Below, piece by piece: positions 49,564 to 54,474 of a stretch of 59,500 bases of DNA. How positions within the stretch are numbered: the stretch's first letter is position 1; every line of letters begins with the position of its first letter. The DNA is from a virus (lineage: Duplodnaviria; Caudoviricetes). The notes beneath the pieces were generated by a model that worked only from the letters and a program-made list of their open reading frames with translations, was not told the origin of the DNA and made no database searches. The translations under genes and the position numbers were made by a program. The DNA is taken from positions 1 to 59,500 of the IMG/VR virus record IMGVR_UViG_3300010052_000132; one strand, written 5' to 3'.

Positions 49564-49626
49564 GTTCGTTCCTTCGTTCCAATGCGGCACAAGCCCGGCG
49601 CCGCGCGGGTATCGGTCGAAAGGGGG

Positions 49627-51486
49627 TTAGGCAGCCAAGCGGAGCGGCCGGCGCTCCGACGGGGCCCAAAGGCGCGGCTCATCGCTGCGAACCGCCTGCA
49701 CAGCCGCCCAGCGCTCGGTCAGCACCGACATGGCAGAGACAGCGGCCCGGGCCTCTTCCCGTGCGTTCAACGCATCCCGCGCTGCTTCATTCCGCCGCGC
49801 CCGCATGCGGAGCAGCGTTTCCCGGACGGCCTGCCGCTTCGCCTTCAGCGTCTCCGCTTCCGCTCGTGCCGAATCGCGCTCGATCTCGGTCTGTCGCAAC
49901 TGTGCAACCGCCGCGCGCTTTGCCGCGCGGTGGCGCCATGCGGCGCGCAAGGCCTGTTCATGGCGCTCCGATCGGCGCGGCTGGCTCTCGACCACGTTCC
50001 CGCCGATCGCGATGCCCATGCGCTGGATAACCGCCTCCAGCGCTTCGATCCGGGCGACGAGGTCGGCGGGCCCAGGCTCCGACGACGTCATTGCAGGATT
50101 ATCATCCATCGTCTCGACATTGTCCTGCAGAATTGGGGCCGCTGCGGGGGCAGCCTGGACCGTCACCGGTTCGGCATCGGGCACGATGACTACGGCGCAT
50201 TCAGACGCCCTATCATCCATCGCGTCGCCCACATCGATCGCGATCGGGCGGCATGCTTCAGCGTATGCTGCCATTTCCGCCGCAGTCATCGAAAGCGCTC
50301 GACTTGGATCGATTTTCGGGGCGGCTGGAAGCTGGCAATCCGCCGGAACGGGCGCGCCTTGGTAATATGCGCCGCGGGGAATATCGACGAAAGTGGAAGG
50401 GTCGATGGGCCCGCACATTGCGCGGACCTGATAGGCGGTTAACTCGATGATACCGCCCTTCGTGCGCAGCGGCCTCGTCAATCCGTTCAGTTCATATGTG
50501 TCACCCTCCGCATGGTAACCTTTGGTCGGCGCGTCCGGATTGTGCATGACGACGCCGGCCCATCGGTCGTTACCGGCGCAGGTTACGAGTGAGGTGTACC
50601 CGTTGCCCTGCCATATCAGCTCATTCTTGCCGTGGGCGCGTTTCATCCGCACGAGCTGCGGAACGGGGATCGAAGGGTCGATTTCGGGAAGCGCGATAGG
50701 CGCGAGATCGTCGAGCCCGTGAAAGATGTTCTCCCATCGGGGAAACGCTTCCACGATCGGACGCGCGACGATCTCCACGGCGCCGACCGTTAGGGCAACC
50801 AAGGCGCGGTCTATCCTTATATCGACCGGCTGGCCACGGTGCAGCTTGATCGCGCCCCGTAGCGCCCCGATGGTAGATTGATCGATGATAACGCCCGGCA
50901 GATCATCGGCGCCATGAGGCAACGGATAGGTTGCTGCGCTCATCCCAAAGCCATCGGTGGCGACCATCGCTAGCCCGCCCGCAAAGCGTTCCAGCGCTAC
51001 GCCATGTAGCCACGGGCGGTTTACATCCTCTTTGGCCGCGAAGGGCGCGACTAGCTCCAGATCGGCCCCGAAACCGTCCGGCAGCGTGAAAGCGTGGCAA
51101 CCGGCCACCTCGGGCGTTGCTGGAAAGCTATTGTGGCATTCCCCGCCGATCGATGAACGGGCTTGCCCGCAAACGAGCGAAACCCGCTGCGCCCCCAATT
51201 TCCACGACATAGTTATAACCGACCCTCGCGGCTGGCGCTTGACGAAGTCCCGCAGGACATGCGCGCCGGCAAGTACGGAGCCTGCCTCCCCTTCGGCGGT
51301 GCCGGGCAGCTGAACCGAAGCCCATACATCGAGCGAGGTAGCACGAATGCGCAGGCCGCCCGCCTCGGGCGTGAGCTCAACCATGCTCAACTGCGGTATA
51401 GTGGTGTGACGCGAGACGATATGGCGCGCGAGATAATCCAGAACCGGCGCAAGCCTGTCGCGTTCGATTTCGATCGAATAAACCAT
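49627..51486 (-). CDS. DNA polymerase III beta-clamp-like domain fused to unknown and coiled-coil regions
   Basis: SRHTTIPQLS.V, RATSLD, RPWLHGV, MVATDG, ARPI...FPRW (DnaN domains 1-2), then unrelated sequence. Confidence 0.75.
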   Translation of the reverse strand: MVYSIEIERDRLAPVLDYLARHIVSRHTTIPQLSMVELTPEAGGLRIRATSLDVWASVQLPGTAEGEAGSVLAGAHVLRDFVKRQPRGSVITMSWKLGAQRVSLVCGQARSSIGGECHNSFPATPEVAGCHAFTLPDGFGADLELVAPFAAKEDVNRPWLHGVALERFAGGLAMVATDGFGMSAATYPLPHGADDLPGVIIDQSTIGALRGAIKLHRGQPVDIRIDRALVALTVGAVEIVARPIVEAFPRWENIFHGLDDLAPIALPEIDPSIPVPQLVRMKRAHGKNELIWQGNGYTSLVTCAGNDRWAGVVMHNPDAPTKGYHAEGDTYELNGLTRPLRTKGGIIELTAYQVRAMCGPIDPSTFVDIPRGAYYQGAPVPADCQLPAAPKIDPSRALSMTAAEMAAYAEACRPIAIDVGDAMDDRASECAVVIVPDAEPVTVQAAPAAAPILQDNVETMDDNPAMTSSEPGPADLVARIEALEAVIQRMGIAIGGNVVESQPRRSERHEQALRAAWRHRAAKRAAVAQLRQTEIERDSARAEAETLKAKRQAVRETLLRMRARRNEAARDALNAREEARAAVSAMSVLTERWAAVQAVRSDEPRLWAPSERRPLRLAA

Positions 51487-51502
51487 GAGATTTCCTTTCA
51501 GT

Positions 51503-51579
51503 GGCCCGCCTCATCAGCACCCGGGCGGCCTGTCCGGGCGGACGCTCCCCATGCGCCAGCCGCATGGGGGCGTTTCGGC
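51503..51579 (-). ncRNA. Type II hammerhead ribozyme HH1
   Basis: GCC-GAAA-stem III-GUC-stem I (CGCCCGG/CCGGGUG)-CUGAUGA-GGC; loop I GGCC can pair with 3' GGCC; cut between 51541 and 51540. Confidence 0.92.
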
Positions 51580-52199
51580 TATTGCAGCGCGGAGATTACC
51601 TCAGAGCGCACCACCGGCTGGCCGTCGGTCCAGTCGAGGGAGGCCAGCCAATTGGGCACAAAATGCCAATCGAAGCACTCGCAATAACCTTCGGTCTCAG
51701 TCTCCCGAACCCATGCGGCGTGACAGGCTGGCGCGAGCTGCAGCATCCAGTCGCGCACCTCGCTGTAGCCAATATTTTCGCATGACAGTTTAGCTGACTC
51801 CTGCCAGCTCCCCGGCTCCTGTAGTTCGCCCGCTACCGCGTCTAGGACAGCTTCCCATAGGCACTGTGCGGCCTCGGCGATGTCATGGCTTGTGATCGGC
51901 CCTCGCAGTGTGTTGCGGCCGCCTAGGCTGTACTCGAGCATAAGCGCTTCGGCGATGCTATCGGCGGCCCGCTCGGACGCGCAATCAGCGACGCATTCCG
52001 CAACGCCTTCGGGATCGACAAGATAGACGCTCCAGAAATGCGGACGGGTGCCGTCGCCGCGAATGTGCGCATGGCAGCCGTCATTGTCCTGAGTGACCGG
52101 ACGGACTTCCACGGCCCTGAACCGCTTGGCGTTGAAGTTGGTACCGACCGGATCGAACAGGCCGCCAGTCATCCACGGCCCGCGATATGCTGCGTTCAT
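51579..52199 (-). CDS. Hypothetical protein
   Basis: RBS AGGA downstream of HH2; FWSVYL...G.AECVAD motif. Confidence 0.7.
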   Translation of the reverse strand: MNAAYRGPWMTGGLFDPVGTNFNAKRFRAVEVRPVTQDNDGCHAHIRGDGTRPHFWSVYLVDPEGVAECVADCASERAADSIAEALMLEYSLGGRNTLRGPITSHDIAEAAQCLWEAVLDAVAGELQEPGSWQESAKLSCENIGYSEVRDWMLQLAPACHAAWVRETETEGYCECFDWHFVPNWLASLDWTDGQPVVRSEVISALQ

Positions 52200-52216
52200 C
52201 ACTTCGTTCCTAAAAT

Positions 52217-52284
52217 GGGCAGGCTCATCAGCGGCTGGATGCCCCCGCCAGCCGGACGCGCGGACGTAGCCCGCGCGTTTCGCC
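52217..52284 (-). ncRNA. Type II hammerhead ribozyme HH2
   Basis: GGC-GAAA-CGCGCGG..CCGCGCG-UC-CGGCUGG..CCAGCCG-CUGAUGA-GCC; pseudoknot GGGCA/UGCCC; cut between 52255 and 52254. Confidence 0.95.
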
Positions 52285-52285
52285 G

Positions 52286-52729
52286 TCAAAGTTCTGGGCA
52301 GTAGTCGCGGGCAAGCTCCCCAGCGTACCATTCCACTGCAAAGCGCAGCCCGGTCAGCGCGCCCTCCGCATAGCGCCCGCTGCGGTGGCCTTGTTGATAC
52401 TCCGCCAGCGTCCAAGGACGCTTGACAAGAAGACCGGTGAGAATCTGGCCTTCATTTATTTCCTCGTCACCATTGCGATAGGTGAACGGTTCGCCGACCT
52501 CTTCGCGATACGCCGCAAGGGCTTCCGCGATCTCGCACCGGTACCGATGCGCCATTTCCAGCATGGGGGCGGTATAGATCAGATCATGCCACCATCCCGT
52601 ATCGGTGCCGCGCATTGCGTCGACGAACGCGGTTCGCGTGCTTTCCGCAGTGCGCCGCCTTCTAGGCCATGCTCCCTCGCGAGCGCTTTCGAGGATCGTG
52701 CGGCGGACATAGGACTTTAGCCGGTTCAT
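52286..52729 (-). CDS. Hypothetical protein
   Basis: 147 aa; GWWHDLIYT...FAVEWYA. Confidence 0.7.
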   Translation of the reverse strand: MNRLKSYVRRTILESAREGAWPRRRRTAESTRTAFVDAMRGTDTGWWHDLIYTAPMLEMAHRYRCEIAEALAAYREEVGEPFTYRNGDEEINEGQILTGLLVKRPWTLAEYQQGHRSGRYAEGALTGLRFAVEWYAGELARDYCPEL

Positions 52730-52732
52730 CGG

Positions 52733-52852
52733 TCAGCCCTCCGCGTGAAAGGCAAGGATCAACAGGGCTGCGGCGCTTTTCATGCGGCGCAGGCTACGAC
52801 GATTCATGCGGCGCAACCTGGCCTCCGCAGTGCGGGTGCGATCGATACGCAT
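52733..52852 (-). CDS. 39-aa basic peptide
   Basis: RBS GAAGGA downstream of HH3; MRIDRTRTAEARLRRMNRRSLRRMKSAAALLILAFHAEG. Confidence 0.6.
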   Translation of the reverse strand: MRIDRTRTAEARLRRMNRRSLRRMKSAAALLILAFHAEG

Positions 52853-52869
52853 AGGTCAATTCCTTCTAG

Positions 52870-52932
52870 GGGCAGGCTCATCAGCGCGCGCTTGCCCTTG
52901 GCGCGCGGACCGGGCCGCAGCCCGGTTTCGCC
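52870..52932 (-). ncRNA. Type II hammerhead ribozyme HH3
   Basis: GGC-GAAA-CCGGGC..GCCCGG-UC-CGCGCGC..GCGCGCG-CUGAUGA-GCC; pseudoknot GGGCA/UGCCC; cut between 52908 and 52907. Confidence 0.95.
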
Positions 52933-52935
52933 TCA

Positions 52936-53196
52936 TCAGCGCCTGTTGCGGCGCTCTTCGCGCAGTTCGCGAGCAAAATGCTTCGTGAACTTGGCATTGA
53001 AAGCCCGGACATCGGCGGCGGCCCGATGATAGGCGCTGTGAGCTTGTAGGTACGGCTGCGAGAACTTGACCCGGTCAGGGGTGAGGCCCATCGGCCCGCT
53101 GCCCACGCCCGGAACGGCATTGAGCTGCGCGCTGGCATCCTTTGCAGCGGCGTAGAGGCGAGCCTGCAGCGCTTTCGCTTCCTGAAACGTCAACAT
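52936..53196 (-). CDS. Hypothetical phage protein
   Basis: GPMGLTPDRVK...RAFN motif; RBS GAAGGGA downstream of HH4. Confidence 0.75.
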   Translation of the reverse strand: MLTFQEAKALQARLYAAAKDASAQLNAVPGVGSGPMGLTPDRVKFSQPYLQAHSAYHRAAADVRAFNAKFTKHFARELREERRNRR

Positions 53197-53212
53197 ATCG
53201 GTTTCCCTTCAA

Positions 53213-53282
53213 GCCCTACCATCGTCAGGCGTCGCTAGGGCAAGCTGCGACGCGACCGACGGGACAAGCCCGCCGGTTTCGG
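53213..53282 (-). ncRNA. Type II hammerhead ribozyme HH4 (bulged short stem II variant)
   Basis: CC-GAAA-CCGGCGGG..CCCGUCGG-UC-GCGUCGC..GCGACGC-CUGACGA-UGG; pseudoknot GCCCUA/UAGGGC; cut between 53254 and 53253. Confidence 0.85.
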
Positions 53283-53283
53283 A

Positions 53284-53511
53284 TCAGTTGAGGGAAACGA
53301 GCACGCCTAGAACGGCCGTGCTGATAGCAAGCGCTGCAGCCATGAACCCAGCCAGCCGGATAACGAGGCGGTCCATCGCCGCATCGAGATCAGCCTTAGT
53401 CACAAGATCAGCGGCAGCGTTGCCCATACCGTGCGCAATAGCATCAGCTTGGCGGCGCTGGAAGCCGGCTCGCTCGAGGGTTTGAGAGAAAGTCAGGGTA
53501 TCGATACCCAT
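53284..53511 (-). CDS. DUF1640/CCDC90-like small membrane-anchored protein
   Basis: DTLTFSQTLERAGF...QADAI...LVTKADL plus C-terminal TM helix. Confidence 0.75.
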   Translation of the reverse strand: MGIDTLTFSQTLERAGFQRRQADAIAHGMGNAAADLVTKADLDAAMDRLVIRLAGFMAAALAISTAVLGVLVSLN

Positions 53512-53592
53512 CGCATTTGTCCTTTCGTTCTTGCCGGCGCCGTCGCATCGCGATCGGTCGGCATGCGGATAAAGACATAAACCGATGCGGCT

Positions 53593-53607
53593 CGCAATAG
53601 TTGCGTC
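53593..53607. promoter_or_regulatory. Palindromic operator candidate CGCAA-TAG-TTGCG
   Basis: 15-bp identical copy at 47968-47982; lies in the AT-richer upstream region of the operon. Confidence 0.5.
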
Positions 53608-53662
53608 GCACTGATCGCAAATAATTTTCGCAGCTCAATCCACAAATGGATGACGTGCGCGC

Positions 53663-53712
53663 GGGTCCTTCCTGGTGCGCGCGCGGGTGTAAGCGGTTAG
53701 GGACCGCATTTT
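53663..53712 (+). other. Putative cos packaging site (cosQ + cosN)
   Basis: GGGTCCT (lambda cosQ sequence) at 53663-53669; 23 bp later the dyad GCGGT-TAGGG-ACCGC, then a T tract; genome encodes a lambda-type terminase. Confidence 0.65.
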
Positions 53713-53931
53713 TCTCGCGAGACCGCCAAGAATACTTGTCGGATTGTATCAATTTCGAGAGTGCGGTAGGAAAACGGCGTGAGGTACAGTGCTGCGACCG
53801 AGGCCGATCGTAGATTCTTGCAGCCGGACTGGCAGACGACAGCGGAATAGGCAGGAGGCACGCATCGAAGGGGCCGCCCGGAGATCGAATGCCAGGCCAG
53901 CCGAGTCCCGCGCCGCGCAACGACAGAAGCG

Positions 53932-54267
53932 CTAGGGCCGCCACGGCTCCCGGGCGCCCAACAGCCGCTCATCAATCCAGAGCAGCTGCGCGAGCTTCAG
54001 GCGCTCCTCCTCTGGCAGCCGGCGCGGCGTTCCCCGCTTGATGAACTGCTGAAGGTAGGCCTCGTTCTTCCCCAGCTTGATCGACAGGCCCAGCAGGCTC
54101 TCGCCGCGCTCGGCCGCCACGCGCAGGATCGTGGCGCGGATCTCTTCACCTGATCGCTCTGCCATCGCCTCGACGATCCTCTCGACACCCGGCGACGCCG
54201 GCCGCTTCGCCGCGGCGCGCTGTCGGTGAAAGAAGGTCGTGACGAGTCGCTCTTGTTCGGATGCCAT
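53932..54267 (-). CDS. HTH DNA-binding protein
   Basis: LSIKLGKNEAYLQQFIKRGTPRRLPE. Confidence 0.75.
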   Translation of the reverse strand: MASEQERLVTTFFHRQRAAAKRPASPGVERIVEAMAERSGEEIRATILRVAAERGESLLGLSIKLGKNEAYLQQFIKRGTPRRLPEEERLKLAQLLWIDERLLGAREPWRP

Positions 54268-54291
54268 GGGCTCTTGATCGACAGCGAAGTC

Positions 54292-54474
54292 CTACAGCGC
54301 AAGAGCCGCCGCGACGATATCGAAATCCCACCCGCGATGCGACCAGTCGTAGAGGCCGGCGCGCCTCGGCTCGGTGCTGACCTGACCGCAGCGGAAGCGG
54401 AGCCAGACCATCGCGTTCGGATCCTTGGGGCGGGCCGTGGTGCCGGGGTTCGGGCGCCAGTGGAGGTCGGTCAA
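54292..54474 (-). CDS. Small hypothetical protein
   Basis: TTGA coupling; VWLRFRCG...DWSH...FDIVA. Confidence 0.5.
   Translation of the reverse strand: MTDLHWRPNPGTTARPKDPNAMVWLRFRCGQVSTEPRRAGLYDWSHRGWDFDIVAAALAL

What the first reader, a model, noticed from the sequence alone, without database searches (positions are those of the whole stretch)
51486..53511. Operon punctuated by four tandem type II hammerhead ribozymes
Seen: four successive intergenic spaces on the sense strand each hold stem II-GAAA-stem III-GUC-stem I-CUGA(U/C)GA-stem II plus a loop I/3' pseudoknot. The helix sequences differ between copies while pairing and core are kept, which indicates selection on structure. Predicted cuts are at 53254/3, 52908/7, 52255/4 and 51541/0, releasing 346, 653 and 714 nt units. 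Known: hammerheads self-cleave to 5'-OH and 2',3'-cyclic phosphate and have been reported near phage genes. Inference: a protein-free system that cuts a polycistronic mRNA into gene-sized units, analogous to RNase III processing of T7 early RNA.
Basis: partly seen in the sequence, partly recalled or inferred. Interest (0 to 1): 0.95.

Follow-up and report, generated by a model that had tools for sequence, protein, structure and literature searches.

The report
Four hammerhead ribozymes between phage genes
Four small self-cutting RNA motifs (type II hammerhead ribozymes) fill the gaps between small genes of an integrated phage and probably chop one long message into gene-sized pieces, but this layout has been known in phages since 2011, so it is a clean new example and not a new system.

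Summary
Rfam's type II hammerhead model (RF02276, cut-off 37 bits) hits all four sites on the minus strand and nothing else in the window: 38.8, 38.1, 36.9 and 22.8 bits. A motif scan of my own finds the same four, against 0.03 per shuffled window. The weak copy (53210-53284) has a U between A9 and G10.1 and a stem II of only 2 bp. This variant recurs in other phage hammerheads (29 of 251) and has a clear homologue with different stems (L105). The window is a provirus record, and the array lies in a minus-strand replication and methylase operon.

Perreault et al. 2011 (PMC3088659) described clustered hammerheads flanking genes in prophages, showed in vitro cleavage of three tandem hammerhead arrangements (one of them a triple), and proposed processing into single-gene mRNAs. 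Other IMG/VR contigs carry up to 10 copies above the cut-off on one strand. This scan found the same layout on other DNA. No RNA data were available, so cleavage is untested here. Verdict: a new member of a known kind, of low interest.

The parts
53210..53284 (-). Hammerhead 1 (type II, variant). The core is CUGACGA, with a U between A9 and G10.1. Stem II is 2 bp, stem III 9 bp, stem I 7 bp, and the pseudoknot 6 bp. C17 is at 53254, so the cut is 53254|53253. The first base is the last base of the upstream stop codon.
   Evidence: RF02276 at 22.8 bits; descriptor hit; anatomy; homologue L105:8825-8879(-) with the same loops and tail but different stems
52867..52933 (-). Hammerhead 2 (type II). 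Stem II is 3-4 bp, stem III 7 bp, stem I 7 bp, and the pseudoknot 5 bp. C17 is at 52908, so the cut is 52908|52907.
   Evidence: RF02276 at 38.1 bits, above the cut-off. Within the ribozyme's bounds the minimum-energy fold equals the hammerhead fold. An orthologous ribozyme with different stems lies upstream of a p39 orthologue in L084.
52214..52285 (-). Hammerhead 3 (type II). Stem II is 3 bp, stem III 10 bp, stem I 7 bp, and the pseudoknot 5 bp. C17 is at 52255, so the cut is 52255|52254.
   Evidence: RF02276 at 38.8 bits, above the cut-off; anatomy
51500..51580 (-). Hammerhead 4 (type II). Stem II is 3 bp, stem III 13 bp with one bulged A, stem I 7 bp, and the pseudoknot 4 bp. C17 is at 51541, so the cut is 51541|51540.
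   Evidence: RF02276 at 36.9 bits, 0.1 below the cut-off. The minimum-energy fold has all three hammerhead helices.
53284..53511 (-). 75-aa ORF upstream of hammerhead 1. It has a hydrophobic C-terminus.
   Evidence: ORF list; weak PF07798 match below its cut-off; phrog_17872 at 1.8e-5
52936..53196 (-). 86-aa ORF, the single gene of the 346-nt unit
   Evidence: ORF list; phrog_7560 at 9.3e-9, function unknown
52733..52852 (-). 39-aa ORF, the first gene of the 653-nt unit
   Evidence: ORF list. An orthologue (60% identity over 35 aa) lies directly after a hammerhead in L084.
52286..52729 (-). 147-aa ORF, the second gene of the 653-nt unit, 3 nt after the 39-aa ORF
   Evidence: ORF list; no Pfam or PHROG family
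51579..52199 (-). 206-aa ORF, the single gene of the 714-nt unit
   Evidence: phrog_23974 at 1.4e-5; homologues of 78, 77 and 44% identity
49627..51486 (-). 619-aa sliding-clamp-like gene, the first gene after the last cut
   Evidence: PF00712 and PF02767 above their cut-offs; phrog_947 at 2e-24
53512..53931 (-). 420-nt gap upstream of the array with no convincing ORF and lower G+C (0.55-0.58). It may hold the promoter. This is inferred only.
   Evidence: ORF lists; composition; no sigma-70-like site was found there

Best explanation
Four type II hammerhead ribozymes lie in the four successive intergenic gaps of a minus-strand operon of a provirus. This part is shown.

The rest is inferred. 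As RNA polymerase transcribes each gap, hairpin III and hairpin I form, the CUGANGA strand closes the short stem II, and the loop I/3'-tail pseudoknot locks stems I and II side by side. The RNA then cuts itself after C17. This releases units of 346 nt (86-aa gene), 653 nt (39- and 147-aa genes) and 714 nt (206-aa gene). Separate upstream (75-aa gene) and downstream (sliding clamp onward) RNAs are also left.

In the type II topology the cut falls between two closed hairpins. Each upstream product therefore ends in hairpin III with a 2',3'-cyclic phosphate. Each downstream product begins with a 5'-OH inside hairpin I, followed by the pseudoknot strand and, 2-4 nt later, the ribosome-binding site. 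Only the 2-4 bp stem II holds the two products together, so they should part at once.

The likely benefit is that each small gene's message gets its own stability and translation rate. RNase III cuts do this for T7 early RNA (recalled knowledge).
For: Sequence and structure:
- Rfam RF02276 hits all four sites and nothing else in the window.
- My descriptor gives 4 hits against 0.03 expected.
- The core residues are complete in all four.
- Stem I covaries over the four copies plus five relatives: 54 of 54 cells are paired, 5 of 6 pairs change on both sides, and the score is 0.958 against 0.205 in shuffles, reached by 0 of 500.

Placement:
- The gaps of 87, 83, 86 and 92 nt are filled by ribozyme plus Shine-Dalgarno site.
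- The upstream stop codon ends 3, 6, 4 and 2 nt before G12. The next start codon lies 25, 25, 22 and 24 nt after A9.
- The same layout holds in 203 of 251 type II descriptor hits in 120 other viral loci, with medians of 7 and 28 nt.
- All genes from 59297 down to 46526 are on the minus strand, and no terminator-like site lies within the array.

Context: terminase, portal, major head protein, DnaB, RecT, methyltransferases, clamp and ligase show a phage, and the record is a provirus.

Precedent: in vitro transcripts of three tandem hammerhead arrangements from prophage regions gave the expected fragments, the Agrobacterium triple also cleaved in E. coli, and processing into single-gene mRNAs was proposed (PMC3088659, passages; review PMC6765202, passages).
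Against: - There is no RNA evidence for this locus, so neither co-transcription nor cleavage is shown.
- Hammerhead 1 scores 22.8 bits, has no pair next to the core unless a U is read as inserted, and then has only 2 bp in stem II. Its two homologues (L105, L136) have 3 bp.
- Plain energy folding of the ribozymes with flanks does not single out the hammerhead fold. The z-scores are -0.8 to -2.1. In the folds, stem I of hammerhead 3 and stem II of hammerhead 1 lose to alternatives.
- The ribozyme is not obligatory for these genes. Of the 9 loci holding distant homologues of the 206-aa gene, 3 in genomes and 6 in viral contigs, only 2 (L127, L133) have a type II hammerhead.
- The benefit to the phage is unknown. 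The authors of the 2011 paper themselves left other outcomes open.
Confidence: 0.65

Rival explanations
1. The ribozymes are real and active, but the excised units are then joined, either by the reverse hammerhead reaction or by a host RtcB-type ligase acting on the 5'-OH and 2',3'-cyclic phosphate ends. This would give circular or spliced mRNAs, and circularity rather than mere separation would be the point.
For: Cleavage leaves exactly the ends such ligation needs (established hammerhead chemistry). The 2011 paper names this possibility (PMC3088659). Unit 2 could rebuild a hammerhead across its ends, because hammerheads 2 and 3 share the stem II strands GCC/GGC.
Against: Only 1 of 3 units has compatible stem II strands across its ends. 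In unit 1 (U)GG faces GGC, and in unit 3 GCC faces GCC (read). Perreault et al. looked for circular or spliced products and report none, with data not shown.
Confidence: 0.05
2. The ribozymes are mainly boundaries of mobile gene cassettes. On this view a hammerhead plus its downstream gene travels as a module between phages, and cleavage is a side effect, or serves only to insulate the newcomer's expression.
For: Hammerhead 2 plus the 39-aa gene recurs in L084 while the genes on both sides differ. The hammerhead 1 type recurs in L105 and L136 in front of unrelated genes. The 2011 paper states that gene identities next to clustered hammerheads are not constant.
Against: The support rests on one or two loci each. 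The stems differ between homologous ribozymes, which points to long vertical divergence under selection for folding rather than recent transfer. This reading does not exclude processing as the function.
Confidence: 0.2
3. Some or all copies are inactive relics or chance look-alikes, and the operon is expressed as an ordinary polycistronic mRNA.
For: Hammerhead 1 is far below the Rfam cut-off and has a minimal stem II. Folding z-scores are weak.
Against: Four complete cores on one strand, each in an intergenic gap, stand against 0.03 expected. Stem I shows compensatory changes at 5 of 6 pairs. The U-after-A9 form is common, and 12 of the 15 such hits in the loci scanned exceed the Rfam cut-off. 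An extra residue at this spot is tolerated in the CChMVd hammerhead, where U raised the rate 3-4 fold (PMC3705267 passage).
Confidence: 0.07

Closest known systems
Clustered hammerhead ribozymes flanking genes in prophages (Perreault et al. 2011, PMC3088659): tandem arrangements in Agrobacterium tumefaciens (a triple), Azorhizobium caulinodans and Clostridium scindens
   Same: Several hammerheads lie on one strand, each in an intergenic gap of a phage operon, bracketing single genes or short blocks. They are type II with a loop I/3'-tail pseudoknot. The proposed role is the same: cutting a long phage transcript into gene-length mRNAs.
   Different: There are four copies here, and the flanked genes are different (small unknown genes ahead of a sliding clamp, not ardA). 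Cleavage is untested here. I saw only passages of the main text. The supplementary figures and lists were closed, so I cannot say whether arrays of four or more, or this provirus, are listed there.
Rfam family RF02276, Hammerhead_II
   Same: Full-length matches (model positions 1-66) at all four sites, with the consensus core and the helix order II-III-I-II.
   Different: Only 2 of 4 reach the curated score. Hammerhead 1 belongs to a sub-type that the model scores poorly: its homologue L105:8825-8879 was not listed at E up to 1.
Larger type II hammerhead arrays in other IMG/VR viral contigs
   Same: The motif is the same, and so is the stop-codon, ribozyme, Shine-Dalgarno, start-codon packing.
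   Different: These arrays are much longer. L058 has 10 matches above the cut-off in 7.6 kb, L008, L087 and L124 have 8 each, and L019, L048 and L073 have 7 each. They are not related to this phage by the proteins tested.
RNase III processing of phage T7 early mRNA (recalled textbook knowledge, no call)
   Same: A polycistronic early phage transcript is cut in the intergenic spaces into gene-sized mRNAs that keep terminal hairpins.
   Different: That system needs a host protein enzyme and leaves 5'-phosphate and 3'-OH ends. Here the RNA cuts itself and leaves 5'-OH and 2',3'-cyclic phosphate.
CChMVd (+) hammerhead with an extra residue between A9 and G10.1 (De la Pena and Flores 2001, as summarised in PMC3705267)
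   Same: Hammerhead 1 has one extra residue at the same spot in the core.
   Different: That one is a viroid type III ribozyme whose natural extra residue is A. The benefit of U was measured in a trans-cleaving format, not in a phage type II ribozyme.

Membership tests
Hammerhead ribozyme, type II (RF02276) | Conserved core: C3 U4 G5 A6 N7 G8 A9, G12 A13 A14, A15.1-U16.1, H17 | tested here: met
   All four copies carry CUGA(U/C)GA, GAAA, an A-U closing pair of stem III, and C17.
Hammerhead ribozyme, type II (RF02276) | Three helices around the core with the open end in stem II (order II-III-I-II) | tested here: met
   Stems III are 9, 7, 10 and 13 bp. Stems I are 7 bp each. Both are closed hairpins. 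Stem II is formed by the two ends.
Hammerhead ribozyme, type II (RF02276) | A base pair directly next to the core in stem II (10.1-11.1) | tested here: inconclusive
   It is met (G-C) in hammerheads 2, 3 and 4. In hammerhead 1 the residue after A9 is U opposite C, and G-C follows only if that U is an insertion. That form occurs in 29 of 251 other hits.
Hammerhead ribozyme, type II (RF02276) | Score at or above Rfam's gathering cut-off (37 bits) | tested here: inconclusive
   The scores are 38.8 and 38.1 (met), 36.9 (0.1 short) and 22.8 (not met).
Hammerhead ribozyme, type II (RF02276) | Pseudoknot of four or more pairs between loop I and the bases just after stem II (stated for most type II members in PMC3088659) | tested here: met
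   The pseudoknots are 6, 5, 5 and 4 bp at the same position, and their sequences differ among the nine aligned ribozymes (read). Singly they are not beyond shuffles.
Hammerhead ribozyme, type II (RF02276) | Self-cleavage after H17 | not testable with these tools
   No RNA run holds the stretch. This needs in vitro transcription or end-mapping.
Clustered prophage hammerheads (Perreault 2011) | Several hammerheads close together on one strand, flanking single genes or short gene blocks in a phage or prophage | tested here: met
   There are four in 1.8 kb, all on the minus strand, bracketing 1, 2 and 1 ORFs. The phage genes are shown, and the record is a provirus.
Clustered prophage hammerheads (Perreault 2011) | One transcript spans the cluster and is cut into the expected fragments | not testable with these tools
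   This is inferred from gene orientation, the 83-92 nt gaps with no room for promoters, and the lack of terminator-like sites inside the array.

The most novel reading that the evidence does not exclude
After self-cleavage, each gene unit carries a 5'-OH and a 2',3'-cyclic phosphate. A host RtcB-type ligase seals these ends into a circular, translatable mRNA. On this reading the array is a factory for exonuclease-proof circular messages of small early genes. My evidence does not exclude protein-mediated sealing. It only shows that the hammerhead itself could re-form across the ends in 1 of 3 units.
Probability: 0.04. Interest if true: 0.75.

Novelty: new member of a known kind. Interest (0 to 1): 0.2.

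Why it matters
It adds a well-defined four-ribozyme array, with exact predicted cut sites and unit sizes, to a class of phage elements whose biological purpose is still open 15 years after discovery. A 2019 review says additional work is needed to define their purpose (PMC6765202).

- The packing is very regular: stop codon 2-8 nt before the core, start codon about 22-30 nt after it. It holds across 203 of 251 other phage copies.
- The type II topology leaves each message capped by a hairpin at both ends.

Nothing here changes what is known about the family.

Tried and rejected
RNA evidence: the look-up of sequencing runs listed no RNA holder, only one DNA run kept as contigs (share 0.45). I did not lay it, because contigs cannot show RNA ends.

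Close relatives of the phage:
- The clamp and the 206-aa protein gave no relative in viral contigs as single queries.
- The clamp's first 270 residues gave only 2 weak hits.
- tblastn against cultured phages gave 1 weak hit for the 86-aa protein and none for the 206-aa protein.
- blastn of 49600-54300 against phages gave only two matches of about 50-90 nt.
- The 206-aa protein has a 78% identical homologue whose source names it a Rhizorhabdus wittichii hypothetical protein. The genome-contig scan returned only homologues of about 30% identity. A sample of 401 genomes of the class of G001 had no match.
- So orthologous copies of hammerheads 3 and 4 were not compared.

Energy folding: the ribozymes with flanks gave weak z-scores and partly alternative folds. 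I take this as uninformative for G+C-rich pseudoknotted RNAs, not as evidence against.

Pattern search for more hammerhead 1 relatives: of 46 sites, counting the window's own, only 3 (window, L105, L136) are type II hammerheads. From their flanks, the other 43 look like chance or coding matches.

Other ribozyme or RNA families: none appeared in the window at E up to 5, apart from a Leu-leader look-alike far below its cut-off.

Promoter scan: no sigma-70-like site lies upstream of the array, so the transcript start is unknown.

Literature: searches turned up no paper on arrays of eight or more phage hammerheads. Those three searches are the only basis for that statement.

Full report
**What is there**

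The stretch 51486-53511 was read on the minus strand. It holds five ORFs with good Shine-Dalgarno sites:
- 53284-53511, 75 aa
- 52936-53196, 86 aa
- 52733-52852, 39 aa
- 52286-52729, 147 aa
- 51579-52199, 206 aa

A 619-aa sliding-clamp-like gene follows at 49627-51486. Four gaps of 87, 83, 86 and 92 nt separate them. The 39- and 147-aa ORFs are only 3 nt apart and have no gap.

**Check of the observation**

Rfam's type II hammerhead model (RF02276, gathering score 37) matches full length in each of the four gaps, on the minus strand:
- 52214-52285 at 38.8 bits and 52867-52933 at 38.1 bits, at the curated threshold.
- 51500-51580 at 36.9 bits and 53210-53284 at 22.8 bits, in E-value mode.

No other hammerhead or other ribozyme family appears anywhere in the 59.5 kb at E up to 5.

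An independent descriptor of my own finds exactly these four sites on both strands. It asks for GAAA, a stem III of at least 4 bp closed by A-U, a non-G at position 17, a stem I of at least 4 bp, and CUGANGA. 200 dinucleotide shuffles of the window give 0.03 hits on average, and none with a stem II.

C17 falls at 53254, 52908, 52255 and 51541.

**Anatomy**

| Feature | HH1 | HH2 | HH3 | HH4 |
|---|---|---|---|---|
| Stem I (bp) | 7 | 7 | 7 | 7 |
| Stem III (bp) | 9 | 7 | 10 | 13, one bulged A |
| Stem II (bp) | see below | 3-4 | 3 | 3 |
| Loop I/tail pseudoknot (bp) | 6 | 5 | 5 | 4 |

The stem sequences differ from copy to copy. In an alignment of the stem I halves of the four copies and five ribozymes from related loci:
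- All 54 cells of 6 pairs are paired.
- 5 of 6 pairs change on both sides.
- The covariation score is 0.958, against 0.205 in shuffles (0 of 500 reach it).
- Pairing collapses to 33-65% when the partner strand is slid by 1-3 columns.

Taken one at a time, the pseudoknots are not beyond composition-preserving shuffles (433, 59, 1039 and 431 of 2000). What supports them is their fixed place and their different sequences across the nine aligned ribozymes (read). The published statement that most type II members have such a pseudoknot also supports them (PMC3088659).

**The weak copy**

In hammerhead 1 the residue after A9 is U and faces C11.1. By the strict 2011 rule (no mispair next to the core) it would be rejected.

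Read with that U as an inserted residue, the next two bases give G10.1-C11.1 and G10.2-C11.2, and the 6-bp pseudoknot follows directly. This form is not rare:
- 29 of the 251 descriptor hits in 120 other viral loci have C11.1 with U after A9, mostly as GCC...CUGAUGA-U-GGC.
- 12 of the 15 such hits that lie in the loci scanned score above Rfam's cut-off.

L105:8825-8879(-) is a plain homologue of hammerhead 1. It has the same loop III, the same loop I start and the same tail, but different stems I and III. L136 is a third member of the sub-type. Both have a 3-bp stem II where the window copy has 2.

An extra residue at this very spot is tolerated in the CChMVd (+) hammerhead, and changing it to U raised the trans-cleavage rate 3-4 fold (PMC3705267 passage). 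I therefore take hammerhead 1 as a real family member whose activity is probable but less sure than that of the other three.

**Context**

The record is a provirus, 94% complete by the collection's estimate. It has:
- terminase, portal and major head genes on the plus strand
- DnaB and RecT genes
- a minus-strand block from 59297 to 46526 with two DNA methyltransferases, the ribozyme-punctuated small genes, the clamp and an ATP-dependent ligase

No terminator-like site lies inside the array and no sigma-70-like site lies in the gaps. A 420-nt lower-G+C gap (53512-53931) lies upstream.

A 78% identical homologue of the 206-aa protein is named by its source as a Rhizorhabdus wittichii protein. 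This hints at a sphingomonad host and no more than that.

**Packing**

The upstream stop codon ends 3, 6, 4 and 2 nt before G12, and in two cases it overlaps stem II. The next start codon lies 25, 25, 22 and 24 nt after A9, with the Shine-Dalgarno site 2-4 nt after the pseudoknot strand.

The same layout holds for 203 of 251 descriptor hits in other viral loci, with medians of 7 and 28 nt. So the window's array is typical.

**How it most likely works**

The sequence elements and their selection for pairing are shown. Co-transcriptional folding and cutting after C17 are inferred.

In the type II topology the cut lies between two closed hairpins:
- Each upstream RNA ends in hairpin III with a cyclic phosphate.
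- Each downstream RNA starts with a 5'-OH inside hairpin I, keeps its pseudoknot partner, and has its ribosome-binding site just beyond.
- Only the 2-4 bp stem II links the products, so they should separate at once.

Each message could then have its own decay and translation rate. The ribozyme is not tied to these genes. Of the 9 loci holding distant homologues of the 206-aa gene, 3 in genomes and 6 in viral contigs, only 2 have a type II hammerhead: L127 with two copies at 41.2 and 31.7 bits, and L133.

**Comparison with what is known**

Perreault et al. 2011 (PMC3088659, passages read) reported the following:
- In vitro transcripts of about 2 kb carrying the tandem hammerhead arrangements of Clostridium scindens, Azorhizobium caulinodans and Agrobacterium tumefaciens (a triple) gave cleavage products of the sizes expected if all the ribozymes cut.
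- The Agrobacterium ribozymes also self-cleaved in E. coli.
- Long phage transcripts may thus be processed into operon-length or single-gene mRNAs. Circular or spliced products were considered but not detected.

A 2019 review repeats the idea and says additional work is needed to define the purpose of these ribozymes (PMC6765202).

Four copies is also not unusual:
Of these, 17 have four or more same-strand descriptor hits.
- Rfam at its curated threshold finds 69 matches in the 11 loci with the longest arrays: 10 in L058 within 7.6 kb, 8 each in L008, L087 and L124, 7 each in L019, L048 and L073, 6 in L009, 5 in L108, 3 in L080 and 0 in L040. In each locus all matches are on one strand.

Earlier notes of this scan describe the same layout on other DNA and reach the same verdict.

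**Rivals**

- **Circular or re-joined units.** Only unit 2 has stem II strands that could rebuild a hammerhead across its ends (1 of 3, read). Ligase-mediated sealing is not excluded, but nothing supports it.
- **Cassette boundaries.** Hammerhead 2 with the 39-aa gene recurs in L084 between unrelated neighbours. The hammerhead 1 type stands before unrelated genes in L105 and L136. This is suggestive but rests on very few loci, and it is compatible with processing.
- **Relics or chance.** This is excluded for three copies and unlikely for the fourth.

**Verdict**

The finding is a new member of a known kind.

Noticed in passing
L058:6402-14004 (-); also L008, L087, L124, L019, L048, L073: Other IMG/VR viral contigs carry very long same-strand arrays of type II hammerheads. 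L058 has 10 Rfam matches above the cut-off within 7.6 kb, and six other loci have 7-8 each. Three literature searches showed no paper on arrays of this size. The supplements of the 2011 paper were closed.
   Followed up: partly
120 IMG/VR loci L005-L124: A sub-type with one extra U between A9 and G10.1 (GCC...CUGAUGA-U-GGC) makes up 29 of 251 type II descriptor hits. Two further hits (of the 251) have an A there. Most of the sub-type hits score well on the Rfam model.
   Followed up: partly
L084:1127-1353 (+) against window 52733-52933 (-): A hammerhead plus a 39/46-aa Arg-rich small ORF is conserved as a pair (60% identity over 35 aa), while the genes on both sides differ. The ribozyme and its downstream gene may move as one module.
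   Followed up: partly
window 53512-53931: A 420-nt gap with lower G+C (0.55-0.58) and no convincing ORF lies upstream of the array. It contains a weak terminator-like hairpin at 53593-53579 (-). It may be the regulatory region or promoter of the ribozyme-punctuated block.
   Followed up: no
window 49627-51486 (-): The clamp-like protein has only the N-terminal and central beta-clamp domains in its first 260 or so residues (PF00712, PF02767). A tail of about 360 aa rich in Ala and Arg follows, with no family match. This is an unusual fusion for a phage processivity factor.
   Followed up: no
window 51579-52199 (-): The 206-aa protein ends about 65-70 residues earlier than its 77-78% identical homologues of 270-273 aa. 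Its C-terminus may have been truncated or replaced just before hammerhead 4.
   Followed up: no
L138:888-903 (-) and flanks: The hammerhead 1 tail pattern also occurs in a short contig next to a GAAAC-containing stretch that my type II descriptor does not accept. It may be a hammerhead of another topology.
   Followed up: no
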